64,000 nucleotides of DNA from Bdellovibrionales bacterium (lineage in GTDB: Bacteria > Pseudomonadota > Alphaproteobacteria > Micavibrionales > Micavibrionaceae): assembly GCA_037969035.1 (NCBI GenBank), contig JBBKWU010000021.1, forward strand, positions 43,178 through 107,177. Direction: 5' to 3'. How positions within the stretch are numbered: the stretch's first letter is position 1; the number at the start of each line of letters is the position of its first letter. Below are positions 2,140 to 50,368 of this stretch, piece after piece. The translations under genes were made by a program, and so were the position numbers. Below the pieces are notes generated by a model, which saw only the letters and a program-made list of their open reading frames with translations, did not search any database and had not been told where the DNA came from.

Positions 2140-2523
2140 ATGGCTATATTAGAACCGATATTTAATGAAACTGTATGGACGCCCCTTTGGGCGGCGGAAG
2201 CAGACGCGCACGGTTCATCAACAGAGACAGGTGCCGCAGATCAAGGCACGGCCATCGAAACACCAGCCTTGCGCCCACCTGAAAATCCATTCCGTCAGCT
2301 TCTCAAGAAAATCGATGAGCTGAGCACAAGCGATAGCATCTATGATATCCGCAATGCGCTTTACATGGTTCACGGTGCGCTTGATGACAAACAATATAGC
2401 AGTGACCAAGAACATTTCGTGTTGTCTGACCGTTGGTTAGAACTGACAGAACGCTTAAACGCGCACCAAACAATGCAGGAGCCGCAACCAACACACCAAC
2501 CGCTTCAACGCTTTGCTATGTAA
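2140..2523 (+). CDS. hypothetical protein (127 aa, soluble, acidic)
   Basis: Longest ORF in the ctaD-ctaB gap. I recognise no motif and there is no clear Shine-Dalgarno sequence. Confidence 0.45.
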   Translation: MAILEPIFNETVWTPLWAAEADAHGSSTETGAADQGTAIETPALRPPENPFRQLLKKIDELSTSDSIYDIRNALYMVHGALDDKQYSSDQEHFVLSDRWLELTERLNAHQTMQEPQPTHQPLQRFAM

Positions 2524-2556
2524 TTCCGCAGTTGAATATAGAAGGATCTTTATTTT

Positions 2557-2967
2557 ATGAGCGCAAACACCGAAAAACCATCAACCCCGACCACATCCAC
2601 GGCCGACCCTAAATCGATCACAGATTTGTGGGCGTCTTATAAAAACGGTGGTGCGGATGCGTTGACGGCGCTCGACGAAATAAAACTCGCTCTCCACCAA
2701 AAACTAAATGACAACCCACAAGCCGCCGCCCTTGTTGCCTCACAGATCATCGGTGAGAGCGCAGAAGGCAGCGACAGCGAAAACATGGCCGTCGATGTGT
2801 TCAAACGCGCCGCTGCGTGTGTGGAGCTTCAAAACCCGATGACACTCGTCAACATGTTCCATGGTTGCGGACAGCGCATGAAGCCCGAGCAAGCCGAACG
2901 CATCACACGCGAGGCACGCAGCTTCCTAGGGCAAATATCGAACACCGCGCCTCGCATAAAACACTGA
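2557..2967 (+). CDS. hypothetical protein (136 aa)
   Basis: ORF with a weak aagga RBS about 10 nt upstream. It begins 33 nt after the previous ORF. I recognise no motif. Confidence 0.45.
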   Translation: MSANTEKPSTPTTSTADPKSITDLWASYKNGGADALTALDEIKLALHQKLNDNPQAAALVASQIIGESAEGSDSENMAVDVFKRAAACVELQNPMTLVNMFHGCGQRMKPEQAERITREARSFLGQISNTAPRIKH

Positions 2968-3009
2968 ATTAAACTTTCCTTTTTCGACAAACTCCGCTAA
3001 GACACTCTT

Positions 3010-3909
3010 ATGAGTGATATGTCCCTTGCTGAAGCCACAGAACAATTCAAAGAAGCACGCGTGCGTGATTACTTCGCGCTGCTCAAGCCGCGTGTGATGA
3101 GCCTTGTTGTCTTCACTGGATTTGCGGGCATGTGGGCGGCACCAAGCTTTAATATCATGCATCCGTTTTTGGCCTTTGTCGCCATGCTTTGCCTTGCCGT
3201 TGGGGCGGGGGCGGCGGGTGCCATGAATATGTGGTATGAGCGCGATATCGACGCCATTATGAACCGCACACGCGGACGGCCGATCCCGATGGGTAAGATC
3301 GAACCTGATGATGCTTTCAGCTTTGCGCTGTTTCTCTCTATTTTTTCTGTGATGATTATGGCGCTGGCGACCAATCTTGTCGCGGCGGCACTTCTTGCGG
3401 TGGCTAATCTGTTTTATGTGCTTGTTTACACCATGTGGCTCAAGCGCCGCACACCGCAAAACATCGTTATTGGTGGTGCGGCTGGTGCATTTCCGCCGAT
3501 GATTGGCTGGGCGGCGGTTACGGGTGATGTGACTTTGATGCCTATTTTGCTGTTTACCATTATCTTTCTTTGGACACCGCCGCATTTTTGGGCGCTATCA
3601 CTGTTTGCCAACGAAGATTATAAACGCGCGAAAATACCGATGATGACCGTCACTGCTGGCGAGAAAAGCACGAAACGCCAGATGCTGTTCTATACCTTGA
3701 TTTTGTTCCCTGTCACGCTTGCCCCTACTATTTTGGGCTTTGCGGGATATATTTATGGTGTGACCGCATTTTTCACAGGTCTGTTCTTTATATACACATC
3801 TATTCGGGTTATAATGGATGACAGTTTAAAGAGTGCCCGTTTAATGTTCGGCTACTCTGTGTTTTACCTTTTTGCTTTATTTTCAGGATTGATAATCGAT
3901 GCCACATAG
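3010..3909 (+). CDS. ctaB: protoheme IX farnesyltransferase (heme O synthase)
   Basis: 299 aa polytopic UbiA-type protein. Motifs: YFALLKPRVM, NMWYERDIDAIMNRTRGRPIP, PPHFWALS. It sits inside the cox cluster. Confidence 0.96.
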   Translation: MSDMSLAEATEQFKEARVRDYFALLKPRVMSLVVFTGFAGMWAAPSFNIMHPFLAFVAMLCLAVGAGAAGAMNMWYERDIDAIMNRTRGRPIPMGKIEPDDAFSFALFLSIFSVMIMALATNLVAAALLAVANLFYVLVYTMWLKRRTPQNIVIGGAAGAFPPMIGWAAVTGDVTLMPILLFTIIFLWTPPHFWALSLFANEDYKRAKIPMMTVTAGEKSTKRQMLFYTLILFPVTLAPTILGFAGYIYGVTAFFTGLFFIYTSIRVIMDDSLKSARLMFGYSVFYLFALFSGLIIDAT

Positions 3910-8031: not shown

Positions 8032-9642
8032 TTAATTATAACGTCCGCCGTCGTCTTTACCGCTCATCGCTACATTTCTGCCGTTGATAACAGATTTAAA
8101 CTCGCTGTCGATCACGTTCATATAGTTTTTGAAGCTCGCGAGCTCTTGGCCTTGCAATGTTTCACCTTGTGGCAATTTCACGCCGCGCGGATTGACCTGA
8201 ACACCACCTTTGATGACTTCATAATGCAAATGCGGGCCTGTGGAGCGGCCTGTTGTGCCAACATAACCGATAATCTGCCCCTGCTTCACGCGCTTACCCG
8301 CGCCCAAGCCTTTGGCAAAGCCCTTCATATGGGCATAGGCGGTTTTAATTTCGGAGTTGTGGCGGATACGCGCATAATTACCGTAGGAGCTATAAGGCCC
8401 CATTTTCTCGATCGTGCCATCACCCGCCGCATAAATCGGTGTGCCGCGTGGTGCCGCGAAATCCAAGCCTTTATGCATTTTGTTATACCCCAACACAGGG
8501 TGGCGACGACTACCGAAGCCCGAAGATAAGCGCGCGCCGTTAATCGGTGTTTTCATCAACGCCTTACGAACGCTTTTGCCGTCTGTGGTGAAATAATCAA
8601 CATCGCCATTTTTCATTTCATAGCGGTACACGGGGATATCCTGCCCGTTTACGTTCAAACGTGCGTAAATGATATTGCCTGTTTTGACCACGTCACCGTC
8701 TTTGGTGCTCATTTCTTCGTACATAATTTCAACATGGTCGCCTTGGCGAATATCACGCTGGAAATCAACATCCCATGAATAAACACCAATTGTATCAGCA
8801 ATCACCGAAGCAGGAATTCCCGCCTCAAGCGCAGAACCATAAAGAGAGACCTTAATATCCGCACGGCCTGCGCGCAGGTTTTTCTCCAGTTCTTTTTCAA
8901 TCAACGAGGCTTTGAAATTACCGTCGTTATCTTTGCTAAGCTGAACCGATTTCACAGGGTCAATAACAATGTTTGTTTCCGCCAGCGTATATTTATCAAG
9001 CCCCACAGGATCAAGACGCACAGAAACTTTTTGCCCTGGGCGAATATCGCGCGGATCAAAAATATCTTTCATCGCTTCGATCACGGCATAGGCTTCGCTG
9101 CCGCTTACGCCTGTTTTTTGGAGAACACCCGCCATTGTATCGCCGCTACCGATTGTAACGTTTTTGTTTTGCGGCTGTGGCAGCGACGGTTTGCGCATAC
9201 TCGCCTTAACGATATGACCATCACCATTTTCACCCGCAGCAGGCTCAATGTCGTTTGCGGCTGCGCCGTAACGCTGCATCCGTTTTTGTGCTGTCTCTAA
9301 TTGCTCTTCGGGGGAACGTTCTGCGTTGCCGTCAATATCAGAAGCCATAATCACCATCTGCGGCAACGATATAGACTTCATATAAGACGCCATCGATCCT
9401 GTTAAAGAACCCGCGCCCATCAACAAAACAAAGGCAAGCACAGCCACAACAGGGAATTTATAACGCCAGCGCAAATGATTATGACGGGTTAAAATATGAC
9501 GATGACGGAACGGGGAATGATGAACAATCGCATGTATCATCTGTCTCGCATAATAACGCGAAGATACATAAGCCGTAGAGAGAGCGGATAAACATATCCG
9601 CGCCACCGCGTTAAATAGTCCTATTATTTCTTGCTGTGTCAT
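8032..9642 (-). CDS. M23 family peptidoglycan DD-metalloendopeptidase with N-terminal TM and an OapA/LysM-like region
   Basis: The C-terminus has HKGLDFAAPRGTPIYAAGDG ... GYVGTTGRSTGPHLHYEV, the M23 zinc motifs HxxxD and HxH. The start is uncertain: the track gives TTG at 9654, and I chose the ATG at 9642. Confidence 0.9.
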   Translation of the reverse strand: MTQQEIIGLFNAVARICLSALSTAYVSSRYYARQMIHAIVHHSPFRHRHILTRHNHLRWRYKFPVVAVLAFVLLMGAGSLTGSMASYMKSISLPQMVIMASDIDGNAERSPEEQLETAQKRMQRYGAAANDIEPAAGENGDGHIVKASMRKPSLPQPQNKNVTIGSGDTMAGVLQKTGVSGSEAYAVIEAMKDIFDPRDIRPGQKVSVRLDPVGLDKYTLAETNIVIDPVKSVQLSKDNDGNFKASLIEKELEKNLRAGRADIKVSLYGSALEAGIPASVIADTIGVYSWDVDFQRDIRQGDHVEIMYEEMSTKDGDVVKTGNIIYARLNVNGQDIPVYRYEMKNGDVDYFTTDGKSVRKALMKTPINGARLSSGFGSRRHPVLGYNKMHKGLDFAAPRGTPIYAAGDGTIEKMGPYSSYGNYARIRHNSEIKTAYAHMKGFAKGLGAGKRVKQGQIIGYVGTTGRSTGPHLHYEVIKGGVQVNPRGVKLPQGETLQGQELASFKNYMNVIDSEFKSVINGRNVAMSGKDDGGRYN

Positions 9643-38455: not shown

Positions 38456-38959
38456 ATGCGCGTTACACTTGCAGAATTAATGGATAAACTAGGCGTCGGA
38501 TACGAAATGGGTCCTTACGAAACCATGCCTTGGTCACATTATGATTCAGAAAGCGGCATCACATGCAGCGCGGAAATTCGTATGGGTGCCGATGCCGATG
38601 AAGTCGATGGTGAAATACAAACCATGTATGACACACCACCCGAGGGCAAAGCATCATTCGAAAGCACTTGCACCTTGGTTGCCACCCCCAAAAGCGATAA
38701 AATGTGGGATATCGATACATTTACAATCCGCGGTGAAGCCTTCGAAGAAGATGCTTATGATCATTCTATCAAAGCCGCTAAGTTTTTCTCGGAAGTCGTT
38801 CGCGCGTTAATGGCCGGTGAAATTCCCGACATTGATGAATTGCTAGATGAAGCCTTCCGCAAGGGTGAGCGTTTTGCAGGAAGCGGTAGCGGCGGTAGCA
38901 AAGCCCCGAAACTTCGCGGCGCGCAACTTATGGGCATAAAAAAAGGCGGCGGCAGATAA
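38456..38959 (+). CDS. hypothetical protein (167 aa, acidic, Gly/Lys-rich C-terminus)
   Basis: A clean ORF. I recognise no family. Confidence 0.5.
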   Translation: MRVTLAELMDKLGVGYEMGPYETMPWSHYDSESGITCSAEIRMGADADEVDGEIQTMYDTPPEGKASFESTCTLVATPKSDKMWDIDTFTIRGEAFEEDAYDHSIKAAKFFSEVVRALMAGEIPDIDELLDEAFRKGERFAGSGSGGSKAPKLRGAQLMGIKKGGGR

Positions 38960-38996
38960 TTGCCGGCGCCTCGCGTTCTTAACATCACTGTTTTTA

Positions 38997-39983
38997 TTAG
39001 CCTGTATCTTCGGTAATCAACATACCGTAGCTTTTGGCGACTTCTATATGACCGCCTGCAATCGGTTTGGCTTCGGCCTCAAAATACCATTTTGGTCCTT
39101 CACGCACCAACGATCCGACTTCGATGGCTTTTGCGCCCGCCATATCCACATCCGCAATCTCAAAACAAAATATTTCCAAACCATCGGCGTTATTACCCAG
39201 TCGGAAATAAACACTGCGAACACTTTCAAGCGAGAACCCTTCGAGCTTTTCGTCATAGACAGAAAGAACAAAGCGAATTTTTTGAACATCGAACGGCACG
39301 CCGCGAAGATCAAGGAACATGCGTTCATCATCACCATCGCCTGCGCCTGTACGGCTATCTTCAAGAAGTTTAACCGCGCCATCACAAGCCATTTGATTAT
39401 TGTAAAAAACAAAATCGCCGTCTTCGCGCGTTTTCTCATCCTTGTTCAATAAGAACAGGCTGAGATCCACATCGACAGGCGCATTTTCAAATGAGCGTTG
39501 ATCCCAACCTGCGCCGACATAAACATCGTGAAGTGTGGGGTCGTGCGCAAGAAGGTCAAAATAGTCACCTTTTTTAATGAGCGTACGTTCGCCGATTTCT
39601 AAAAATTTTGAGTTCTTTTCTTCCTCTGCGTCAATGTCTTTTAAAAAGCGTGCTTCGGCGAGCTTGTTGGCGTCCATTGTTGCCGCAGCGTCTTTATCCT
39701 TATCACCCATGAGGTCATCAAGATTAGACGGCACAGCTCGTCCCGCGGGTGGCTCACCTTCCGCGTCTTTATTCTCTGCTGTTGCCTCAAGTGCAGGATC
39801 TTTTGGCATATCAGGTGCAGGGTTTGGCGCGGGGCTTGGTTCTGGATTCGATCTAAGGGGCGGCGGCGCAAGACTAGGCGTGCGCAAAGGATCCCCCTGA
39901 AGATCGATCGGCTTTATCGTATCATCGTCATCATCCCAAAATTTGTCGAACTTGCTTAGTTCATCGTCATCATCGCCACTCAT
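38997..39983 (-). CDS. TerD-domain protein with ~130 aa acidic/proline-rich N-terminal extension
   Basis: The C-terminal ~190 aa have YVGAGWD...VDVDLSLFLL...DFVFYNN...DSRTGAGDGDDERMFLDL...KIRFVLSVYD, the TerD beta-sandwich with its Ca-binding GDGDDE loop. Confidence 0.85.
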   Translation of the reverse strand: MSGDDDDELSKFDKFWDDDDDTIKPIDLQGDPLRTPSLAPPPLRSNPEPSPAPNPAPDMPKDPALEATAENKDAEGEPPAGRAVPSNLDDLMGDKDKDAAATMDANKLAEARFLKDIDAEEEKNSKFLEIGERTLIKKGDYFDLLAHDPTLHDVYVGAGWDQRSFENAPVDVDLSLFLLNKDEKTREDGDFVFYNNQMACDGAVKLLEDSRTGAGDGDDERMFLDLRGVPFDVQKIRFVLSVYDEKLEGFSLESVRSVYFRLGNNADGLEIFCFEIADVDMAGAKAIEVGSLVREGPKWYFEAEAKPIAGGHIEVAKSYGMLITEDTG

Positions 39984-39986
39984 GCG

Positions 39987-40985
39987 TTACATCCCCTTAT
40001 GCACTAAACTGAAACCGTATAGATATGTTGCCACCATATAAACAAGATACCCCAATAAAAACAGATACCCCAGCGGCTTTGTAACCTTTTTATAAAATAA
40101 CAGAATGATCGTAAACAAAGCACTAATGCCAAGCGTGACCCAAATATCAAGAGCCATCAATTGCGGTTCTAAATCACCCGTAACATATGGTTTTATCGCA
40201 CCCGTCACACCCAAAATCATCAAAATATTAAAAACGTTCGAGCCAATAATATTACCCACGACCAAATCACTTTGTCCACGACGTGCCGCGATAATACATG
40301 TGGTCAGTTCAGGCAAAGATGTTCCGATCGCAATAACGCTTAAACCGATCACAGCCTCAGGAACACCGAGCACCGTTGCGCTAACTTTCGCGCCGCGCAC
40401 CAAAAATTCAGCACCCAATGCAATGGCGGCTAGACCCAGCAGCAGATAAATCATGGCTGTACGGAAGCTCGCAAATTCTGGGTTTTCAACGTCCTCGACA
40501 GGGATATCCCCCTTACGCGACATATAATATTGCCACAGCACATAGGCCGCGAGCAAAACAACCATTGCAACCGCCATCAATTGTGAAATGCCGCCCCAAA
40601 CAAACAGCCCCACCAACAAAACAGTGGCAAACATCATCATCACCAAGTCACGCAGTAGCGCGCGTGGCACAACATGGATAGTGGCAATCGCCGCCGTGGC
40701 ACCAATCACCAACAAGATATTGGCGATATTTGACCCAATCACATTACCAACCGCAATCCCCGAAGATCCCGATAGATGCGCCGTAAGTGAAACCAAAAGC
40801 TCAGGAAAAGATGTTCCGAATGCCACAATCGTAAAACCAACAACAAGCGGTGAAATACCAAAATGTCGCGCGACAAAAACCGCACCGTCAATACACCAAT
40901 CACCACCCTTAATCAACATGATCATCCCAAAACCAAGACAACCGATGGCAAGCAAAAAGGCTTCTATCATTGTGAATTCCATCAT
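39987..40985 (-). CDS. CaCA family Na+/Ca2+ (K+-dependent type, YrbG-like) exchanger
   Basis: 332 aa with about 10 TM helices. Both alpha-repeats are present: FGTSFPELLVS...GNVIGSNIANILLVIG and IGTSLPELTT...GNIIGSNVFNILMILG. Confidence 0.92.
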   Translation of the reverse strand: MMEFTMIEAFLLAIGCLGFGMIMLIKGGDWCIDGAVFVARHFGISPLVVGFTIVAFGTSFPELLVSLTAHLSGSSGIAVGNVIGSNIANILLVIGATAAIATIHVVPRALLRDLVMMMFATVLLVGLFVWGGISQLMAVAMVVLLAAYVLWQYYMSRKGDIPVEDVENPEFASFRTAMIYLLLGLAAIALGAEFLVRGAKVSATVLGVPEAVIGLSVIAIGTSLPELTTCIIAARRGQSDLVVGNIIGSNVFNILMILGVTGAIKPYVTGDLEPQLMALDIWVTLGISALFTIILLFYKKVTKPLGYLFLLGYLVYMVATYLYGFSLVHKGM

Positions 40986-41034
40986 TAAGCGTACATACTC
41001 TTTGTTAGTAATTAATCATTTAAGTTGCCCGCTA

Positions 41035-41814
41035 TCAGGCTTGTGATTTTTGGCCGTCAGCCCATTCCAGACCAAACCCAAAGGCGCGATCCATTTCCGC
41101 ATGGCCAGGGTAGTACTCTGTGTAATTTGTGAGACGTACACCACCGCGCACTTGCTCTAACCCCGCAACAGCACACAATGAAAGCTCTGATTTATATGTA
41201 TGTAATTTTACGATCATCGGTTTTTCACCGGGCACACGAATTTGTATTTGCGGTTGAATTTCCGCCCAATTCACGGCACCTTCGTAAATATAAAGATAAA
41301 CCATAAGGCGCTTTATCTGTGGCCATTTTTTACCGTTAATCAAAATAATTTCATCTTCGCCATCATCATCGTCATCATCATCGCCCGTGCGATCATCATG
41401 CGAGAGTTTCATAAACGGCTCATCATTGTAATCACCAAAATGTTCACCAAAAGCTTGTATAGAACCGCGCTCGCCATTTTCAAGCTCGTACAGGCATCCT
41501 AAATCCAAATCAACGCCCTTAAATTTTTTCGGTTTCTTGGTTTTTTTGCCGAGTAGTTTATTTAAAAAGCCTGTGGGTTTCTCCTCGTCGCCATCATGGA
41601 TATTCTGCCATGCCGCGCCGATGCGGATTTCTTTGTAACCACCTTCTTGTGGTTGAATAATATCAACCTGTCCCGTTTCACCCAGATAATTATAGGAATT
41701 ATCGTCCGTATGGGACACATACCCCGCCGCGCCCAAAGCGCTACGGCCTGTAAAGCTTGAACGGCTTTTACTTGCTTCTGCTAATGAATCTACCGATGAT
41801 TTATCGCGTGACAT
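41035..41814 (-). CDS. divergent TerD-like domain protein with a poly-Asp insertion
   Basis: VDLDLGCLYELENGERGSIQAFGEHFG...LSHDDRTGDDDDDDDGEDEIILING...IKRLMVYLYIYEG matches the TerD-family pattern seen in the actinobacterial type (DLDLGC...GDDRTG...GE). The family call is from memory. Confidence 0.7.
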   Translation of the reverse strand: MSRDKSSVDSLAEASKSRSSFTGRSALGAAGYVSHTDDNSYNYLGETGQVDIIQPQEGGYKEIRIGAAWQNIHDGDEEKPTGFLNKLLGKKTKKPKKFKGVDLDLGCLYELENGERGSIQAFGEHFGDYNDEPFMKLSHDDRTGDDDDDDDGEDEIILINGKKWPQIKRLMVYLYIYEGAVNWAEIQPQIQIRVPGEKPMIVKLHTYKSELSLCAVAGLEQVRGGVRLTNYTEYYPGHAEMDRAFGFGLEWADGQKSQA

Positions 41815-41884
41815 GATTGATACCTCCTTCAGAATAAGAAAGATATCATTGAAGCCCCATAAAGGAAAGACAACTATTTAGATT

Positions 41885-42607
41885 TCATCGTGGCCCCAAG
41901 GCACCATCACGAACACGAAAAGGAGATGGGCCAACATATAAAGATTGGGTCAATTCCGTCAGAGCCGCATTTCGATATGTTTCCAGCCGATAACGCAGCA
42001 CCATATCATTTTGGTCAAGCTGCGCGCCGTGCTGCGTCACGTATTGAACGGCAAAATCATCCCATCCTTTATCAAGGGCTTCATTGACCTGATTACTATG
42101 CCGCGCATGTTCTTCATCAAACACCACGCCATGACGTAAAATCGACAACGCAATATGCTCCGACGGATACGCATAAATTGCTAAATACAGCATGTTTTCA
42201 GGGACAGGGCGGCCTTCTAGCTGACCAAGCAGCATATCAACATCCGCACCCAATTGACGTTCAATCGCCAAGGTCAAAAAATTTTCGATGCGCGCATCAG
42301 CATCAGACAAAGCCCCGTCACGATCTTTTTCCACCAATTGCCACCAACCTTTACGGTAAGCATCTTCCATTGCCGCACCATCGTCTTTTTCGGGTTCCGC
42401 ACCATAAAGATTGATGTATTTTTCAGCGAACGCACGGTTATCCGTCCTCAGGGCCCAGTCGATTATATGAGATTCAAATTGTTGTATCGTCCAAGATCCC
42501 GCAGAAGCCGCAACACCAAAAGCGACTAAAAGGCTTCCACAAATCGCCATTTCTCTCAACGGCAATTTAGATTTTGGTGGTTTTTTGCTGAAATCCAGCC
42601 GCGTCAC
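41885..42607 (-). CDS. hypothetical N-terminally membrane-anchored protein (240 aa)
   Basis: One TM helix (MAICGSLLVAFGVAASAG) is followed by a helical-looking soluble domain. It lies 70 nt upstream of, and co-directional with, the TerD-like gene. Confidence 0.5.
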   Translation of the reverse strand: MTRLDFSKKPPKSKLPLREMAICGSLLVAFGVAASAGSWTIQQFESHIIDWALRTDNRAFAEKYINLYGAEPEKDDGAAMEDAYRKGWWQLVEKDRDGALSDADARIENFLTLAIERQLGADVDMLLGQLEGRPVPENMLYLAIYAYPSEHIALSILRHGVVFDEEHARHSNQVNEALDKGWDDFAVQYVTQHGAQLDQNDMVLRYRLETYRNAALTELTQSLYVGPSPFRVRDGALGPR

Positions 42608-44691: not shown

Positions 44692-47439
44692 GTGCTGCAG
44701 GCAAATGACATTAAACCATATTTAAAGCCTAAAAAGGTTCTCGGCTATATGTTTATGCCGCGGATTATTCCGCGCATCAAAGAATTAGTCGGTAGTGGTT
44801 TTGGGTGGGTTGCCATGCTTATGGCGATCATCTATCAGTCTGTTCGCTTGTTACCGCCCGCACACCCTTATACGAACCCTGCCAATAAAGGGAAGTTCGG
44901 CATAAGGCATGTTATCGTCGAAGCTTGGGGCAATCTGACATTCAAACGCGCAAACATCGACCAAATCGTGATTTTCTGCCTGCTTCTTCTCGGATTCATT
45001 TTGCTCGGGTTTCAAATTGGGGGTCTGCTATTGGGTGCTATCATCCAGCCTGCTTTCGCTATTCCTGGCTTTCTAGGGCTTTTTGCAACGCCTAATCCAA
45101 CCAACGATATTGCTTTCATGATTTTGGATCAGGTGTTTGGGATTCCCAATCTATATAACTCCAAATTTGGCCCCACGGGCCCCGGCACCATTCCTTTGTT
45201 CCAACAAGGTCTGCATGTTTTATTCAGCTATTACAGCACGATGATTTTGATCGTTGCTGTGTTTGTTTTGCTGTATTACGTTGTCATCACGCTTGGTGAA
45301 ACAGCAACAACAGGTGTGCCGTTCGGGCGCAGATTTAACTCCATTTATGCACCATTACGCCTTGTGGTTGCTGTCGGCCTTTTGGTTCCCGTTAATTATG
45401 GCTTAAACACCGCGCAATACATTACGCTATTTGCCGCGAAGTACGGTTCTAGTTTTGCAACAAACGGGTGGATACTGTTCGCCAACAGCGTTGCAAACCC
45501 CTCTAGTACGCAAGACGAGTCACTGCTCGCGCGCCCAACCGTTCCTGACGTCAAACATATTGTAAAATTTATGATGCTTGTTCAAGCGTGTCGCGTGGCT
45601 TACGAGCGCTTATATGATGGCTCTAGCTATAATGGTCAAGTTATAACCATTGAACCATATTATGTGAGTTCACTTGCTCCAGCCCAAGTTGTTCCAGTAC
45701 CAATTACACCGGCGGACTGGCAAGCAGCGGTCACATACTACAACAACAGTGATATTATTATTCGTTTTGGTCATGAAGATGCCGCAGAATATCCGCTGGA
45801 AAAAAGTAATGTTTACCCATATTGCGGTGAGATCACGATTCATACCACATCGAATGATGGCATTGCTGGTGTAACAAATGCCGCCGAAGAAGTCCAATAC
45901 CGGTATCTATGGTTAATCCGCCAGCTTTATTTTAGCACCTTTTTTAGGGATTTCGGAGAGCGTGCCTTCAGGGTTAGCATAAAAATTGGCTCGACTCCAC
46001 TTGATCCTTGCGCGATCACCTTTGTGGGAGAGGTAAGCTGTACCACACCGACCGCACGCTTGCCGCCCGAAGAGTATAAAGTCAGTGCGTATGTTGGTAG
46101 AAATACCGCATTTTTAAATCAAGTTAAAAACGCTTATGATAATGCAAATAATGGAACGTATGCCACAGCATATACTGTGCCCCCAGCTTTACTGGACAGA
46201 GGATGGGGTGGGGCAGCGATCTGGTACAACCAAATTGCCGAATGGAACGGTGCATTTACAGCGGCGACACTTAACGTTCCAACACCAAGTAAACTGCCGT
46301 CCGTTATGGAAAAAGTTGCAAAGGAACGTGATTCAAACGATCAAACCGTTGAGTCGGGGCACCGCTATCGCCCTTATCTATCAAATAATCAAAAGGTGGA
46401 ATTTGACCTGGGTGGGGAACATGACATTGCGGTGATGTTGAATGAGTCCTACGAATACTGGGAAAAAAGCGATAGTAGTGAATGGACGGATATGCAAGAA
46501 TCCGGAAATATTATCATCGCGACACTCAGCCGTATTTTTGGCTTAAACGGCTTATTCGATATGCGTGACAACCCAGACACACACCCGCTCGCATCACTTG
46601 TGGCGGCGGGTAAAGGCATAATTGAGAGTGCCATTCGTAACCTTATGATTGGTCTTGGATTTGGGTTTGCTGGTGGTGTTGCTGGTGCATTTGACCCCCA
46701 TATTGGTGGATTTTTAGGTGCCGTTTCAGGCATGCTCGTTTCGTTTTCCACGATTGGTATCACAGTTGGGTTTGTGCTGTATTATATTTTACCGTTTATG
46801 CCATTCATGTATTTCTTCTTTGCCGTCGGCGGTTGGGTGAAATCCATTTTCGAAGCACTTGTCGGTGTTCCCCTATGGGCACTTGCGCACTTACGCATTG
46901 ATGGGAATGGTATTCCAGCAGACAATGCCTCTGCGGGTTACTTCCTGATTTTTGAAATTTTTGTAAGACCTATTTTAACCGTTTTCGGATTATTGGGCGG
47001 CATGGCCATTTTCACCGCTATGATGCGTGTCATGCACGATATTTTCCCGCTTGTCGTTGCCAACTTAACTGGTTTTGATGCCAGTCTTGACGATAAAACA
47101 GGCACGATTATGGGGATTGAATATAAGCGCGATATCATCGACGAATTTATGTTCACCATTATCTACACAATTGTGGCGTACATGATTGCGACATCAAGTT
47201 TTAAAATGATTGACCAAGTACCAAACAGCATCATGCGTTGGATGGGTGCAGGCATACAATCATTCAACGACCAACGCGATGACGCCGTCCCTGGACTTGT
47301 ACAATACGCGGGTATCGGTGGTTATGGTATGGCAAACCAAGTGACTGGTGCTTTGCAGCAAGGAGCAACAGGTGCGGGATCGGTTATAGGAACGGGCGGC
47401 AAGGCTTTATTTGGTCTTGGTACGCGCGCAGGCAAATAG
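44692..47439 (+). CDS. large polytopic membrane protein, paralogue 1 of 3 (possibly DotA/TraY-like; function unknown)
   Basis: 915 aa. GTG start with an aggtg RBS 7 nt upstream. The N-terminal (~4) and C-terminal (~5-6) hydrophobic helices flank a ~380 aa hydrophilic domain. It shares long motif blocks with the next two ORFs. Confidence 0.85.
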   Translation: MLQANDIKPYLKPKKVLGYMFMPRIIPRIKELVGSGFGWVAMLMAIIYQSVRLLPPAHPYTNPANKGKFGIRHVIVEAWGNLTFKRANIDQIVIFCLLLLGFILLGFQIGGLLLGAIIQPAFAIPGFLGLFATPNPTNDIAFMILDQVFGIPNLYNSKFGPTGPGTIPLFQQGLHVLFSYYSTMILIVAVFVLLYYVVITLGETATTGVPFGRRFNSIYAPLRLVVAVGLLVPVNYGLNTAQYITLFAAKYGSSFATNGWILFANSVANPSSTQDESLLARPTVPDVKHIVKFMMLVQACRVAYERLYDGSSYNGQVITIEPYYVSSLAPAQVVPVPITPADWQAAVTYYNNSDIIIRFGHEDAAEYPLEKSNVYPYCGEITIHTTSNDGIAGVTNAAEEVQYRYLWLIRQLYFSTFFRDFGERAFRVSIKIGSTPLDPCAITFVGEVSCTTPTARLPPEEYKVSAYVGRNTAFLNQVKNAYDNANNGTYATAYTVPPALLDRGWGGAAIWYNQIAEWNGAFTAATLNVPTPSKLPSVMEKVAKERDSNDQTVESGHRYRPYLSNNQKVEFDLGGEHDIAVMLNESYEYWEKSDSSEWTDMQESGNIIIATLSRIFGLNGLFDMRDNPDTHPLASLVAAGKGIIESAIRNLMIGLGFGFAGGVAGAFDPHIGGFLGAVSGMLVSFSTIGITVGFVLYYILPFMPFMYFFFAVGGWVKSIFEALVGVPLWALAHLRIDGNGIPADNASAGYFLIFEIFVRPILTVFGLLGGMAIFTAMMRVMHDIFPLVVANLTGFDASLDDKTGTIMGIEYKRDIIDEFMFTIIYTIVAYMIATSSFKMIDQVPNSIMRWMGAGIQSFNDQRDDAVPGLVQYAGIGGYGMANQVTGALQQGATGAGSVIGTGGKALFGLGTRAGK

Positions 47440-47506
47440 GCAGGGTCATAATTAACAATTAGTCATAACAATAGACAAATGAGACAAAACAAATAAAAGG
47501 CAAACT

Positions 47507-50368
47507 ATGTTTTTAATGTTAACCAAAGGACAAATTTTTCGCTACTTAGTGATGCCGGAGTTTCTTCCGCGCATTAAAGAGTTGTTTGGCTCAGGCTTTG
47601 GACACATTGCATTTTTTATTGCCCACATATACCGTGCAGCGCGCCTTCTTCCAAAGTTTCACCCTTATTTGAATCCTACGAATATTGGACGTTTTAACAT
47701 ACAAAACGTTATTAGTGAGGCCGCCAAAAATTTAAAATTCAAAAAAGACAACACGGATCAGATCATTATCTTTTTTATAATTCTGCTCGGTCTTGTTGTT
47801 CTTTTGGCGCAATGCGCGACCCTTGTATTGGGGTTGTTCTTTTTAAACTCTGCTCATGCAACAATACCGTTAAACTTTTTCCAATTTTTTCAAACAATCC
47901 AACCGCCCGACAATGATGTTGCCTTCGTACTTTTAGATATGGTGTTTGGTGTTCCTGACTTTTTCAACTCTTGTGTTTCCAAAGGTGTTGTATGCTTTGA
48001 AAAAGGTGCGAATAATATGGTCAGCGGATTACCTGGAAACGCGAACGCCACATACGATGCCTACTCTGACTACAACCGCTTGGTATCCGTTGGTGCCTAT
48101 CCGTTTCCGACCCCCTTCCATGAAGCATTGCGCAATATGATGCAGCTTTATAGCATCGGCCTTTTGGTCATCGCGATGCTTATCTTTATATATTTCATAA
48201 TCGCCATCGTTGCAGAAACTGCGCAAGAAGGTACACCGTTTGGCAGACGTTTCAACAAAGTTTGGGCGCCGCTACGTATGGTTATGGCACTCGGGTTATT
48301 GATCCCGATCACAAATGGTTTAAATAGTGCCCAATACATTGTGCTCTATGCTGCTAAATTCGGATCAAACTTTGCAACAAATGGCTGGGTTATATTCACA
48401 GACACCGTTGTCACAGGAACAAATACATTACTCGGCGATCAAAACGATCTGGTTGCTACACCGCGAACGCCCGAAGTTAACGCGCTAGTCGAATTCTTTA
48501 CGATCATGGCCACCTGTATCCGCGCTGAATTATTGGTCAATAGCCGAACGGTGCTGCCATGGCACGTTATTCCTAATAGTGGCACAGGACCAAACGTCCT
48601 CCCTGCGTTGCAGGGCACAACATTTGCGCAAGCTCTGGCATTTTACGAGAACAGAGATATCTTGATTGTATTTGGTGACCAAACAGTCAGAACCGATGGC
48701 AACGATGTATCCGCATCTTATCAGGGCGGTATTGCGCCCGTTTGTGGCTCCATTGTTTTACCGATACCGACGGTAAACCAAACAGATGGTCCGGGCGCAT
48801 GGCAGGTGACAGAACAATATTACGAGTTACTTTTAACCCCCTTATGGAATCAAGCTTTCACGGCGGGTGCCGCCTGTTCGGGCCCTGCCTGTCCTGTGCC
48901 TCCCGTCGGCTTCTGGAGTCCTACTGGAGGAACGCCAGGCTGGCTCAGAGAAATCGGTAGTAATATGGTTTTGAAATATATTCCCGATGCCGCGGATGGT
49001 ATGACACCGCCAACCGCGCTAACCTCAGATACCGTTGGCAATCCGACCATAGCCACCTTACAGGGCTTCATAGACATGTTCCAAACAAACCCCTTTGGTA
49101 TCGCTGGCATAACCCCCATAGAAACAATACTGGCAGACGCCGTCTTATTAACAGCAACCAGCGGCAATTGGACTTACGATCTCCAAGAACTTGGCTGGGG
49201 TGGTGCGGGTATTTGGTACAATAAGCTTGCCCAACTGAACGGTGCACTTGTCGCGTCGGCCTATAAACTTCCTTACATTAAAGAGTACCCAATACTCATG
49301 CAAGATGCCCATGCAAAACGGTTAGCTGCAAACGCATCCGTTATGGGATATGACCGTTTTAATCCTTATTTGGCAGAAGAAGAAACCGTCGAGACAAATC
49401 AGCCGGGTGATACAAACATACAAATAGCACTATATAATTCACAAGTAATTTGGAAAGATGTCTATACAAATGCATCAACGAACTTCTTTGTGGACTCGAT
49501 CATTGCTGTTTTTGGGCTCGATGGTCTTTTCAACATGGTTGACAACCCGACAATACACCCTCTGGCACAGTTGGTTGCCATCGGGAAAAGTCTTGTTGAA
49601 AGTTCGATCAGAAACCTTGGATTCTCCTTTATTGCCGGCGCCGTTGGTATCGCCGCGCAAGGCACGCCATTTGGCCCGCTCGCAGATGTTGCCAGCAGCT
49701 TTGCCTCAAGCATCGGCTTGATTGGTTTGGGCGTTGGGTTTGTTCTGTTTTACATTATCCCGTTCTTGCCGTTTATTTACTTCTTTTTTGCGGTTGGTGG
49801 ATGGGTCAAAGGTATTTTTGAAGCCATGGTTGGCGTGCCGTTATGGGCGTTGGCGCACATTCGTATCGACGGCAACGGACTACCGGGCGATGCGGCGATG
49901 GGTGGTTACTACCTCATTTTGGAAATTTTCCTGCGGCCGATATTGATCATCTTCGGATTAATCGCGAGTATTATCATTTTCTCAGCACAGGTAAAAGTTC
50001 TCAACGAAATATGGTCATTGGTTACAACCAACCTCAGCGGTTTTGATGATGCTAAGGCCAAAACTGTCGGTGCTGGTTTAACGGGTGCTGTCGAATATAT
50101 GCGCGGCCATGTCGACCGTTTCTTCTTTACAATTATATATGCCATCATTGTTTATCTTCTAGCGATGTCATCGTTCAAATTAGTGACACTGATCCCTAAT
50201 AACATTCTTCGCTGGATGGGAGCCAACGTACAGTCATTCGGTGACCAGAGCGATGATCCGGCACAAAACCTTGTTCGGAACACCATGTTGGGCAGTAACA
50301 TCGCTACCCAAAGCGTGGGTGGCTCAATCGGACGCTTGAAGGGTTCCCTGACTGGTGGCGGCGGTTAA
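47507..50368 (+). CDS. large polytopic membrane protein, paralogue 2 of 3
   Basis: 953 aa. ATG start with an aaagg RBS 6 nt upstream. It has the same architecture and motif blocks (GSGFG, PFGRRFN, GWGGAGIWYN, FFFAVGGWVKGIFEAMVGVPLWALAHIRIDGNGLP). Confidence 0.88.
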   Translation: MFLMLTKGQIFRYLVMPEFLPRIKELFGSGFGHIAFFIAHIYRAARLLPKFHPYLNPTNIGRFNIQNVISEAAKNLKFKKDNTDQIIIFFIILLGLVVLLAQCATLVLGLFFLNSAHATIPLNFFQFFQTIQPPDNDVAFVLLDMVFGVPDFFNSCVSKGVVCFEKGANNMVSGLPGNANATYDAYSDYNRLVSVGAYPFPTPFHEALRNMMQLYSIGLLVIAMLIFIYFIIAIVAETAQEGTPFGRRFNKVWAPLRMVMALGLLIPITNGLNSAQYIVLYAAKFGSNFATNGWVIFTDTVVTGTNTLLGDQNDLVATPRTPEVNALVEFFTIMATCIRAELLVNSRTVLPWHVIPNSGTGPNVLPALQGTTFAQALAFYENRDILIVFGDQTVRTDGNDVSASYQGGIAPVCGSIVLPIPTVNQTDGPGAWQVTEQYYELLLTPLWNQAFTAGAACSGPACPVPPVGFWSPTGGTPGWLREIGSNMVLKYIPDAADGMTPPTALTSDTVGNPTIATLQGFIDMFQTNPFGIAGITPIETILADAVLLTATSGNWTYDLQELGWGGAGIWYNKLAQLNGALVASAYKLPYIKEYPILMQDAHAKRLAANASVMGYDRFNPYLAEEETVETNQPGDTNIQIALYNSQVIWKDVYTNASTNFFVDSIIAVFGLDGLFNMVDNPTIHPLAQLVAIGKSLVESSIRNLGFSFIAGAVGIAAQGTPFGPLADVASSFASSIGLIGLGVGFVLFYIIPFLPFIYFFFAVGGWVKGIFEAMVGVPLWALAHIRIDGNGLPGDAAMGGYYLILEIFLRPILIIFGLIASIIIFSAQVKVLNEIWSLVTTNLSGFDDAKAKTVGAGLTGAVEYMRGHVDRFFFTIIYAIIVYLLAMSSFKLVTLIPNNILRWMGANVQSFGDQSDDPAQNLVRNTMLGSNIATQSVGGSIGRLKGSLTGGGG

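What the first reader, a model, noticed from the sequence alone, without database searches (positions are those of the whole stretch)
38997..42607. TerD-like / CaCA Na+-Ca2+ exchanger / TerD apparent operon: a putative Ca2+ buffering-efflux module without other ter genes
On the minus strand, a 259-aa TerD-like gene (41814-41035) is followed after 49 nt by a YrbG-type CaCA exchanger (40985-39987). After 3 more nt comes a 328-aa TerD-domain protein (39983-38997). A membrane-anchored hypothetical gene lies 70 nt upstream (42607-41885). TerD domains are established Ca2+-binding beta-sandwiches, with Ca sites formed by the G-D-x-x-T-G-x-G-D-G-D-D-E type loop. That loop is readable in both proteins, as DSRTGAGDGDDE and DDRTGDDDDDDDGEDE. 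Classical ter loci combine TerD with TerA/B/C/Z/E, and none of these is present here. Instead two TerD proteins sandwich a Ca2+ transporter. One TerD also carries a ~130-aa acidic and Pro-rich disordered N-terminus (MSGDDDDELSKFDKFWDDDDD ... PPPLRSNPEPSPAPNPAPD). This points to a dedicated Ca2+ sensing, buffering and export unit rather than tellurite resistance.
Basis: partly seen in the sequence, partly recalled or inferred. Interest (0 to 1): 0.6.

Follow-up and report, generated by a model that had tools for sequence, protein, structure and literature searches.

The report
Ter operon with calcium exchanger replacing TerC
A predatory Micavibrio-group bacterium carries a stripped-down 'tellurite-resistance' (Ter) operon in which a dedicated sodium/calcium exchanger sits where the membrane protein TerC normally sits, which gives a testable clue that Ter proteins work with divalent-cation export.

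Summary
The 328-aa protein is a canonical Ca-loop TerD. The 332-aa protein is an NCX/YrbG-type CaCA exchanger that keeps 11 of 12 NCX_Mj ion ligands.

The 259-aa protein has a TerD fold, but it is specifically a short TerA-type paralog (37% identity, E 6e-40, to the C-terminal domain of Klebsiella TerA). The claim 'no other ter genes' is therefore wrong. The 240-aa upstream ORF is an orphan and not part of the unit.

- **Linkage is selected.** All 68 TerD/TerA-linked exchangers form one clade (100/100) apart from unlinked paralogs.
- **The exchanger occupies the TerC slot.** One alphaproteobacterium (G579) has TerZ-TerA-TerB-CaCA-TerD-TerE, with the exchanger exactly there. A second, unrelated CaCA lineage was recruited into another TerC-less Ter cluster (G531).
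- **The two transporters are complementary.** Across the order, 40 of 41 genomes have the linked CaCA or TerC.
- **The exchanger is dispensable.** The TerA-TerD pair is the constant core; about 30% of loci lack the exchanger.

Best reading: a reduced Ter system whose membrane cation transporter is a Ca2+/Na+ exchanger. Ca2+ transport and protein contacts are inferred. This is a new variant of a known kind.

The parts
41035..41814 (-). Short TerA-type TerD-fold protein, 259 aa. It has a single beta-sandwich domain (about residues 40-250), a conserved N-terminal segment and a C-terminal EYYPGHAEMDRAFGFGLEW motif.
   Evidence: tblastn hits only annotated terA in classical ter operons, one place per record. 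BLASTP of residues 99-256 against K. pneumoniae TerA residues 231-383 gives 37% identity, E 6e-40. The AlphaFold model has pLDDT 76, and Foldseek finds only TerD structures. hhalign against TerD gives 87% probability. The family has more than 1250 clusters.
41350..41400 (-). Acidic loop HDDRTGDDDDDDDGEDE of the TerA-type protein (residues 139-155). This is the family's 13-residue GDERTGDAEGEDE loop plus a fixed 4-Asp insertion.
   Evidence: Alignment A1 and loop tabulation. The loop aligns to the TerD Ca loop in BLASTP and hhalign and to the GDDRTGEALDGE loop of TerA.
41823..41829 (-). Shine-Dalgarno AAGGAGG, 8 nt upstream of the ATG of the TerA-type gene.
   Evidence: Read from the sequence.
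39987..40985 (-). NCX/YrbG-type CaCA (Ca2+/Na+) exchanger, 332 aa, belonging to a dedicated Ter-linked clade.
   Evidence: Pfam Na_Ca_ex x2, E 1.5e-60, and TIGR00367 above its cut-off. Match to NCX_Mj 3v5u, E 7e-42. 11 of 12 ion ligands are identical and D240 is replaced by N253; this is invariant in 68 linked orthologs. The linked clade has 100/100 support.
40800..40817 (-). Alpha-1 repeat signature GTSFPE (residues 57-62; includes T58, S59 and E62, equivalent to NCX_Mj T50, S51 and E54).
   Evidence: Alignment to NCX_Mj; conservation.
40308..40325 (-). Alpha-2 repeat signature GTSLPE (residues 221-226; includes T222, S223 and E226, equivalent to NCX_Mj T209, S210 and E213).
   Evidence: Alignment to NCX_Mj; conservation.
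39992..39998 (-). Shine-Dalgarno AAGGGGA for the TerD gene. It lies inside the last codons of the exchanger gene, and the stop-to-start gap is 3 nt.
   Evidence: Read from the sequence. The CaCA-to-TerD gap has a median of 21 nt in 65 modules.
38997..39983 (-). Canonical TerD, 328 aa. The TerD domain spans residues 136-322, preceded by a lineage-specific N-terminal extension.
   Evidence: PF02342, E 1e-43. Match to K. pneumoniae TerD 2kxt, E 1e-33. In the AlphaFold model the domain has pLDDT above 90.
39579..39983 (-). N-terminal extension of TerD (residues 1-135). It comprises a conserved acidic motif (D/E-rich, (L/F)xxF, D/E-rich, (I/V)(K/R)PI(D/E)), a Pro/Ala-rich unstructured linker, and a predicted helix at residues 105-125.
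   Evidence: Comparison of orthologs shows the pre-domain length varies from 25 to 185 aa, and the motif is shared by the window's subclade, including loci without the exchanger. Composition. AlphaFold model.
39324..39362 (-). Canonical 13-residue TerD Ca2+-binding loop EDSRTGAGDGDDE (residues 208-220).
   Evidence: Aligned to GDNRTGEGDGDDE of the Ca2+-binding K. pneumoniae TerD. D209, G213, A214, G215, G217, D218, D219 and E220 are invariant in 35 orthologs; R211 is nearly invariant.
38940..38965 (-). Terminator-like hairpin CGGCAATTATCTGCCG followed by a T-run, 32 nt after the TerD stop codon.
   Evidence: Consensus scan. No comparable site lies between the three genes.

Best explanation
The locus is a three-gene operon (41814 to 38997, minus strand) and a reduced Ter stress-response system. 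It encodes a short TerA-type TerD-fold protein, a dedicated NCX/YrbG-type Ca2+/Na+ exchanger, and a canonical Ca2+-loop TerD.

The exchanger occupies the position that TerB-TerC hold in classical terZABCDE operons. It belongs to a CaCA lineage found only next to Ter genes.

Proposed mechanism:
- The exchanger moves Ca2+ (most likely out of the cell) against Na+ across the inner membrane.
- The two cytoplasmic TerD-fold proteins bind Ca2+ through their acidic loops.
- They act as the cytosolic sensing, buffering or regulatory partners of the membrane transporter. This is the role they are presumed to play beside TerC (a metal-efflux protein) in classical Ter systems.

Shown here: gene content, homology, fold, ligand conservation, conserved tight linkage, a dedicated exchanger clade, in-situ replacement of TerC, and TerC/CaCA complementarity.

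Inferred: Ca2+ as the substrate, the direction of transport, and physical or regulatory contact between the TerD-fold proteins and the exchanger.
For: 1. Identity of the parts.
- TerD.
- CaCA with 11 of 12 NCX_Mj ligands, invariant in 68 orthologs.
- TerA-type protein.

2. Operon structure.
- Shine-Dalgarno sites, a 3-nt gap and a single downstream terminator-like site.
- Median gaps of 48 and 21 nt in 65 modules.

3. Linkage.
- 49 of 71 named Micavibrio-type loci have TerA-CaCA-TerD.
- In the order, 20 of 39 CaCA genes lie next to TerD or TerA, in four arrangements (A-B-C, C-A-B, B-C alone, A-B-HAD-C).

4. Dedicated clade.
- All 68 linked exchangers form one clade (100/100). The 13 unlinked paralogs from the same genomes fall outside it.

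5. TerC slot.
- G579 has TerY-PP2C-kinase-TerZ-TerA-TerB-CaCA-TerD-TerE-PRTase.
- G199 has TerA-TerB-CaCA-TerD-TerD, whereas G067 has TerZ-TerB-TerA-TerC-TerD-TerD.
- The G579 exchanger lies inside the linked clade.

6. Independent second recruitment.
- G531 has TerD-TerD-PRTase-HAD-StiP-CaCA-TerB and no TerC in the genome. Its CaCA is only 25% identical to the window's.

7. Complementarity.
- TerC is present in 20 of 21 genomes without the linked CaCA, against 7 of 20 with it (Fisher p 5e-5). 40 of 41 genomes have at least one.

8. Literature.
- TerD binds Ca2+, and a Streptomyces TerD gene affects Ca homeostasis (Pan 2011 and Daigle 2015, as summarised in PMC8123226).
- TerC proteins have Mn efflux and metalation activity, and meeF is co-operonic with TerD paralogs (PMC10550928, PMC12096827).
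Against:
- The exchanger is dispensable for the pair. 20 of 71 loci lack it, including cultured M. aeruginosavorus, and 7 of 41 genomes have no CaCA at all.
- The complementarity test is not corrected for phylogeny and is not significant within the window's own family (p 0.13).
- The TerC genes in this order are not adjacent to TerD genes, so they may be ordinary Mn exporters.
- The substrate of YrbG-type exchangers is poorly established. The characterised TerC substrate is Mn2+, not Ca2+.
- The TerA-type protein's loop is modified by a 4-Asp insertion, and its metal binding is untested.
- This genome also holds two other CaCA genes and a TerC gene.
Confidence: 0.62

Rival explanations
1. The architecture is as described, but the transported and sensed ion is another divalent cation (Mn2+, or Zn2+/Cd2+-type), matching the known substrate of the displaced TerC.
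For: TerC-family proteins have Mn efflux and metalation activity (PMC10550928, PMC12096827). The exchanger sits in the TerC slot. Ca2+ transport by YrbG-type proteins has not been firmly demonstrated (own knowledge).
Against: The ligand set is that of a Na+/Ca2+ exchanger: 11 of 12 NCX_Mj residues, with D240N as in eukaryotic NCX (the eukaryotic state is from memory). The solved TerD structure binds Ca2+ through the very loop conserved here (Pan 2011).
Confidence: 0.14
2. The TerA-type/TerD pair performs a Ter stress function that is unrelated to ion transport, and the exchanger is a neighbour kept by inherited gene order.
For: The pair persists without the exchanger in 20 of 71 loci and in genomes with no CaCA. 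Much flanking synteny (ettA, xseA, putA) is also conserved in the family.
Against: - The linkage survives in loci that have lost the flanks and in other orders.
- It occurs in four gene orders.
- The linked exchangers form a clade that is never seen unlinked in this sample.
- A second CaCA lineage joined a Ter cluster independently.
- Presence is complementary with TerC.
Confidence: 0.1
3. The exchanger runs mainly in Ca2+-entry mode, and the TerD-fold proteins transduce a Ca2+ signal (for example on prey contact) instead of supporting efflux or buffering.
For: NCX-type exchangers are reversible (established knowledge). The hosts are epibiotic predators with Ca-dependent RTX-type secreted proteins (PMC3189940). 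The TerD carries a long, flexible extension with a docking-like motif.
Against: No effector or output domain is linked to the module. The replaced partner, TerC, is an exporter. There is no evidence on ion gradients in these organisms.
Confidence: 0.08
4. The module is an anti-phage or anti-colicin defence unit, like the phenotypes reported for plasmid ter operons.
For: Classical ter operons are reported to give phage and colicin resistance (PMC8123226). The full G579 cluster carries the TerY-PP2C-kinase triad.
Against: None of the module's proteins hits PADLOC. The module sits in a conserved housekeeping neighbourhood, not a defence island. It is near-universal in a family with small genomes.
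Confidence: 0.04

Closest known systems
Classical terZABCDE(F) tellurite-resistance / Ter stress operon (IncHI2 and Klebsiella plasmids; locus L157)
   Same: A TerA-type paralog lies upstream and a TerD-type paralog downstream of a membrane cation-transporter gene. Both paralogs are cytoplasmic beta-sandwich proteins with acidic loops.
   Different: - TerC (and TerB) are replaced by an NCX-type CaCA exchanger.
- TerZ and TerE are absent.
- TerA is reduced to one domain (259 aa against 383 aa).
- The module is chromosomal, in a housekeeping neighbourhood of a predatory alphaproteobacterium.
- TerD carries a long disordered N-terminal extension.
Bacillus subtilis yceCDE-meeF(yceF) operon
   Same: Several TerD paralogs are co-operonic with a membrane metal transporter (PMC10550928).
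   Different: The transporter there is TerC-family (MeeF), with Mn efflux and exoenzyme-metalation activity. Here it is a CaCA exchanger with Na+/Ca2+ ligands.
NCX_Mj (Methanocaldococcus jannaschii, PDB 3v5u) and the YrbG branch of CaCA
   Same: Full-length alignment (E 7e-42), two GTSxPE alpha-repeats, 11 of 12 ion-coordinating residues, and a short cytoplasmic loop. The protein passes TIGR00367.
   Different: D240 is Asn in every Ter-linked member. The gene is embedded in a Ter operon. The linked members form a separate clade from the housekeeping YrbG-like paralog of the same genomes.
Ca2+-binding domains CBD1/CBD2 (Calx-beta) of eukaryotic NCX
   Same: This is an analogy only. In both cases Ca2+-binding beta-sandwich modules with acidic loops are associated with an NCX-type exchanger.
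   Different: The folds are unrelated. CBD1/CBD2 are fused in cis within the large cytoplasmic loop, whereas the TerD-fold proteins here are separate polypeptides. No interaction has been shown.
Streptomyces coelicolor TerD-domain protein SCO2368 (Tdd8)
   Same: A TerD-domain protein tied experimentally to calcium homeostasis (Daigle 2015, as cited in PMC8123226).
   Different: It is a stand-alone gene in an actinomycete, and no transporter linkage was described in what I could read.

Membership tests
TerD domain family (Pfam PF02342): 328-aa protein | Score above the Pfam gathering threshold over the whole domain | tested here: met
   149.5 bits against a cut-off of 25.3, covering 183 of 187 profile positions.
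TerD domain family (Pfam PF02342): 328-aa protein | 13-residue Ca2+-binding loop GDN(R/L)TG(E/A)GDGDDE | tested here: met
   EDSRTGAGDGDDE aligns to GDNRTGEGDGDDE of 2kxt. The acidic positions are invariant in 35 orthologs. Ca2+ binding itself was not tested.
TerD domain family (Pfam PF02342): 259-aa protein | Score above the Pfam gathering threshold | tested here: not met
   The window's protein has no hit. Some orthologs reach 26-31 bits over roughly the first 115-120 of the 187 profile positions.
TerD fold: 259-aa protein | Beta-sandwich superimposable on solved TerD structures | tested here: met
   Foldseek against 3ibz, 2kxt and 2qz7: E 1e-6 to 1e-5, probability 1.0, target-normalised TM-score 0.53-0.61. 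The next unrelated hit has E 0.2. hhalign gives 87%. The protein hits phrog_5698, as the TerD does.
TerA (classical ter operon) | Specific sequence similarity to TerA, as opposed to TerD, TerE or TerZ | tested here: met
   There is one matching place per plasmid record, annotated terA wherever the feature carries a gene name. 37% identity, E 6e-40 to TerA residues 231-383.
TerA (classical ter operon) | Two-part architecture of about 385 aa | tested here: not met
   The protein is 259 aa with a single domain. Only the C-terminal domain of TerA is matched. Outgroup homologs of 387-397 aa keep the long form.
Classical Ter system | TerC membrane protein encoded in the cluster | tested here: not met
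   There is no TerC at the locus. The only TerC-family gene of the genome is on contig C15.
Classical Ter system | TerB encoded in the cluster | tested here: not met
   No ORF of the locus hits PF05099. TerB is present in the G579, G199 and G531 versions.
Classical Ter system | Two or more TerD-fold paralogs in one operon | tested here: met
   A TerA-type and a TerD-type protein are present.
CaCA superfamily, YrbG/NCX branch | Two Na_Ca_ex alpha-repeats and a curated family score | tested here: met
   PF01699 in two stretches, E 1.5e-60. TIGR00367 at 232 bits against a cut-off of 179.65.
CaCA superfamily, YrbG/NCX branch | Ion-coordinating residues of NCX_Mj (A47, T50, S51, E54, S77, N81, A206, T209, S210, E213, S236, D240) | tested here: met
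   11 of 12 are identical, and D240 is replaced by N253. The residue list for NCX_Mj is from memory of Liao et al. 2012.
CaCA superfamily, YrbG/NCX branch | Na+-coupled Ca2+ transport activity | not testable with these tools
   This needs vesicle or proteoliposome assays.

The most novel reading that the evidence does not exclude
TerD-fold proteins (the TerA, TerD, TerE and TerZ types) may be trans-acting Ca2+-sensing partners of membrane divalent-cation exporters, and TerC and CaCA exchangers may be interchangeable as that exporter. If so, the core biochemical activity of all Ter 'tellurite-resistance' systems would be control of cytosolic divalent-cation (Ca2+) efflux. The Micavibrio three-gene module would be the minimal natural form of that machine.
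Probability: 0.3. Interest if true: 0.8.

Novelty: new variant of a known kind. Interest (0 to 1): 0.62.

Why it matters
Ter operons have been known for about thirty years. They are widespread on plasmids of enterobacteria and in many chromosomes, yet they still lack an agreed mechanism.

Two facts have stood side by side without a link: TerD binds Ca2+, and TerC-family proteins move metal ions. This study adds four observations:
- a dedicated Na+/Ca2+-type exchanger lineage sits in the TerC slot;
- this happened at least twice independently;
- the linked exchanger and TerC are present in a complementary pattern;
- the same lineage runs from full Ter clusters down to a three-gene module.

Together these are comparative evidence that the membrane partner of TerD-fold proteins is a divalent-cation transporter, and that Ca2+ is a plausible currency.

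The finding turns the question into simple experiments: transport assays with and without the two soluble proteins, and swapping terC for the exchanger in a cloned ter operon in a laboratory strain. It also gives a compact system for studying bacterial Ca2+ homeostasis, which remains poorly understood.

Tried and rejected
- **Direct searches with the 259-aa protein.** Pfam, NCBIfam and PDB sequence searches found nothing useful. Its identity came only from homolog names, fold search, profile comparison and tblastn against annotated plasmids.
- **hhalign of the TerA-type family against TerD.** It aligned the Ca loop and flanking strands but probably misplaced the DLDLG strand. I did not rely on its column-by-column alignment.
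- **The 240-aa upstream ORF.** It has no homolog in 40 relatives or 80 related loci and no family hit, so I rejected it as part of the unit.
- **Known RNA regulators (for example the Mn riboswitch that precedes TerC genes).** Rfam returned only sub-threshold chance hits.
- **Defence-system membership.** There were no PADLOC hits.
- **Literature.** The Aravind-lab Ter survey (PMC4104200) and Daigle 2015 (PMC4325092) are not held. Six full-text searches found no paper linking TerD with a CaCA exchanger. This does not prove that none exists. The Micavibrio genome paper does not mention these genes.
- **The idea that CaCA-less loci moved the exchanger elsewhere.** I rejected it because the CaCA genes elsewhere in those genomes belong to the unlinked paralog clade.
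- **The poly-Asp tract as a slippage-variable repeat.** I considered this and rejected it. The insertion has a fixed 4-residue length across the subclade.

Full report
**Observation**

The gaps between them are 70, 49 and 3 nt. The quoted loop and N-terminal strings are present.

- **328-aa protein.** It is a clear TerD (PF02342, E 1e-43, residues 136-319). It aligns end to end with the Ca2+-binding TerD of Klebsiella pneumoniae (2kxt, E 1e-33). Its loop EDSRTGAGDGDDE lies opposite GDNRTGEGDGDDE of that structure.
- **332-aa protein.** It is a CaCA exchanger with two Na_Ca_ex repeats and passes NCBI's calcium/sodium antiporter model TIGR00367.
- **259-aa protein.** It has no Pfam, NCBIfam or PDB sequence hit of its own. 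Against the 328-aa protein, BLASTP aligns only the loop region (E 0.02).

**What the 259-aa protein is**

It belongs to a family of more than 1250 sequence clusters that sources name 'TerA' or 'TerD family'. An AlphaFold model built from 48 homologs (pLDDT 76, pTM 0.73) matches only TerD structures in the PDB: 3ibz, 2kxt and 2qz7, plus one integrative-model chain (9a6r_B), all at probability 1.0. The next unrelated hit has E 0.2. Profile-profile comparison with TerD gives 87% probability, E 4e-6. The protein and the 328-aa TerD hit the same phage family, phrog_5698.

More specifically, it is TerA-like:
- tblastn against 72,556 plasmids finds one place per record, annotated terA wherever the feature carries a gene name (other rows read 'TerD family protein' or carry no annotation).
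- BLASTP against K. pneumoniae TerA gives 37% identity, E 6e-40, over residues 99-256 against TerA residues 231-383.
- This alignment includes the DLDLG strand, the GDDRTG loop and the terminal EMDRAFGxG...W motif.

It is therefore a short, single-domain TerA-type paralog. TerB, TerC, TerZ and TerE are indeed absent from the locus.

In most of the family the loop is a 13-residue GDERTGDAEGEDE, the same length as the TerD motif. The window's subclade carries a fixed four-Asp insertion in it.

**The exchanger**

It aligns over its whole length with NCX_Mj (E 7e-42). Of the twelve ion-coordinating positions of NCX_Mj (list from memory of Liao et al. 2012), eleven are identical. D240 is replaced by Asn. 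This pattern is invariant in all 68 Ter-linked orthologs examined. From memory, Asn is also the state in eukaryotic NCX. This is the signature of a Na+/Ca2+ exchanger, but transport has not been tested.

**Operon**

- A strong Shine-Dalgarno site (AAGGAGG) precedes the first gene.
- The Shine-Dalgarno site of the TerD gene lies within the last codons of the exchanger gene.
- One terminator-like hairpin with a T-run follows the TerD stop codon.
- No comparable site separates the three genes.
- Across 65 distinct orthologous modules the median gaps are 48 nt and 21 nt.
- No Rfam family matches the region.

**Who has it**

A scan of 185,579 species genomes with the family alignment gave 213 loci. 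The best 80 are all Micavibrio or Micavibrionaceae-type alphaproteobacteria, including cultured M. aeruginosavorus. Among the 71 loci with enough downstream sequence:

| Arrangement | Loci |
|---|---|
| TerA-type, CaCA, TerD | 49 |
| TerA-type, TerD | 20 |
| TerA-type alone | 2 |

M. aeruginosavorus has the pair without the exchanger. The 240-aa upstream ORF has no homolog in any of the 80 loci or in 40 related genomes. It is an orphan inserted between ettA and the module.

In 41 genomes of the order:
- The TerA-type gene is present in 32 genomes and linked to a canonical TerD in 29 of them.
- 20 of 39 CaCA genes lie on the same strand within 1.5 kb of a TerD-fold gene.
- Four arrangements occur, including TerD-TerA-CaCA and CaCA-TerD without TerA.
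- Seven genomes keep the pair but have no CaCA at all.

**Is the linkage more than inherited synteny?**

In the window's family the flanks (ettA, xseA, putA) are conserved too. I therefore examined more distant genomes and built a tree of the exchangers. All 68 exchangers adjacent to TerD-fold genes form one clade with 100/100 support and a long stem. All 13 unlinked CaCA paralogs from the same genomes fall outside it, including this genome's second YrbG-like gene. So a dedicated Ter-linked CaCA lineage exists. Genomes with the pair alone have lost it; the gene has not moved elsewhere.

**The link to classical Ter systems**

Outside the order, the TerA-type hits lead to a graded series:

| Genome | Gene order |
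|---|---|
| G067 | TerZ-TerB-TerA-TerC-TerD-TerD (classical) |
| G579 | TerY(vWA)-PP2C-kinase-TerZ-TerA-TerB-CaCA-TerD-TerE-PRTase |
| G199 | short TerA-TerB-CaCA-TerD-TerD |
| G184 | short TerA-CaCA-HAD-TerD |
| Micavibrionales | short TerA-CaCA-TerD, or short TerA-TerD |

In G579 the exchanger sits exactly in the TerC slot. The G579 exchanger lies inside the Ter-linked clade, sister to that of G199.

A separate case is G531, in another class:
- Its cluster reads TerD-TerD-PRTase-HAD-StiP-CaCA-TerB.
- The genome has no TerC.
- Its exchanger is only 25% identical to the window's and has NCKX-like repeats.

This is an independent recruitment.

**Quantitative context**

In an even sample of 400 genomes of the phylum, 50 besides the window's own carry TerD. 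TerC lies within 1.5 kb of a TerD in 19 of these genomes, and a CaCA in 1. Within 5 kb the counts are 21 and 3. The CaCA variant is thus rare overall but dominant in this order.

Within the order, TerC and the linked CaCA are complementary:
- TerC is present in 20 of 21 genomes lacking the linked CaCA, and in 7 of 20 genomes that have it (Fisher p 5e-5).
- 40 of 41 genomes have at least one of the two.
- The three families with mixed states (f3, f5, f7) are perfectly complementary.

Two caveats apply. The test ignores phylogeny, and it is not significant within the window's own family (p 0.13). Also, the TerC genes of this order are not next to TerD genes. This genome holds both transporters, plus two further CaCA genes and a second TerD that lies beside gatB, unknown genes and prkA.

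**The TerD extension**

- The N-terminal 135 residues are acidic and Pro-rich.
- In the AlphaFold model, residues 1-104 are unstructured, a helix spans 105-125, and the TerD domain has pLDDT above 90.
- Orthologs vary from 25 to 185 residues before the domain.
- The window's subclade shares an N-terminal motif: acidic, (L/F)xxF, acidic, (I/V)(K/R)PI(D/E). The rest is a variable linker.
- The motif also occurs where the exchanger is absent, so it is not specific to the exchanger.

**Interpretation**

Established knowledge:
- TerD binds Ca2+, and a Streptomyces TerD gene affects Ca homeostasis (Pan 2011 and Daigle 2015, as summarised in PMC8123226).
- TerC-family proteins have metal (Mn) efflux and metalation activity.
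- B. subtilis meeF is co-operonic with TerD paralogs (PMC10550928, PMC12096827).

The best-supported reading is a reduced Ter system in which a Na+/Ca2+-type exchanger has displaced TerC as the membrane cation transporter. The two cytoplasmic TerD-fold proteins would be its Ca2+-binding partners. Because the pair persists without the exchanger, it is the constant core and the exchanger is an exchangeable module.

Still inferred: the substrate, the direction of transport, and any physical coupling.

Rival readings are listed with their tests: another divalent cation, mere synteny, Ca2+ entry for signalling, and phage defence. PADLOC gives no support for defence.

**Novelty**

Six full-text searches found no paper describing TerD with a CaCA exchanger. 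A 2026 phage paper reports TerD genes and a Ca-ATPase in the same genomes without linking them (PMC12880540). The main comparative survey of Ter systems (PMC4104200) could not be read, so prior mention cannot be excluded.

Earlier notes of this scan report TerD-CaCA pairs in other genomes. I treated them as leads. I confirmed the pattern independently and added four points: the TerA identity, the TerC-slot series, the dedicated clade, and the complementarity.

I rate the finding a new variant of a known kind, with interest about 0.6.

Noticed in passing
window 41885-42607 (-): A 240-aa ORF with an N-terminal hydrophobic anchor lies between ettA and the module. It is an orphan with no homolog in 40 related genomes or 80 related loci, and no family hit. 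In relatives, ettA is directly divergent from the TerA-type gene.
   Followed up: yes
window 38456-38959 (+): A 167-aa protein without any family hit lies convergent to the TerD gene. It is conserved at this position in most Micavibrionaceae loci and, at 23-28% identity, in three other families of the order, with or without the exchanger. Its function is unknown, and it shares the terminator region with the module.
   Followed up: partly
window 41350-41400 (-): The poly-Asp run in the TerA-type loop is a fixed 4-residue insertion relative to the family's 13-residue loop. Its length is the same in all subclade members aligned (with D/H/A/I substitutions), so it does not look like a slippage-variable tract.
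   Followed up: partly
own genome: G000 C12:227464-228417, C8:59252-60298, C26:99387-99950, C15:315-878: The genome has two further CaCA genes (a YrbG-like paralog of the unlinked clade and a divergent 418-426-aa type). It also has a second, divergent TerD beside gatB, unknown genes and prkA, and one unlinked TerC-family gene.
   Followed up: partly
L159 (G531:C14:30000-43000): A genome of another class has a Ter cluster reading TerD-TerD-PRTase_2/TRSP-HAD-StiP/PELOTA-CaCA(383 aa, NCKX-like repeats)-TerB. The genome has no TerC. This is an independent recruitment of a different CaCA lineage.
   Followed up: partly
L125 (G001:C53) 2296-3171 (+): In one relative the space between the TerA-type gene and TerD holds, on the opposite strand, a 291-aa protein with a signal-peptide-like N-terminus where the exchanger would be. 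That genome has neither a CaCA nor a TerC, the only such case among 41.
   Followed up: no
L019 (G184) 8562-9149 (+): A HAD-family hydrolase sits between the Ter-linked exchanger and TerD. HAD genes also flank the Klebsiella ter locus (L157) and the G531 cluster.
   Followed up: no
window 44692-50368 (+): Tandem membrane proteins of about 900 aa without Pfam hits lie beyond ettA. They are conserved next to the module in most related loci. An earlier report of this scan treats them as DotA-like.
   Followed up: no
record titles of L027-L106: Public records label the same lineage variously as Micavibrio, Alphaproteobacteria, Rhodospirillales, Pseudobdellovibrionaceae or Bdellovibrionales. Taxonomy labels of these MAGs are inconsistent.
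   Followed up: no
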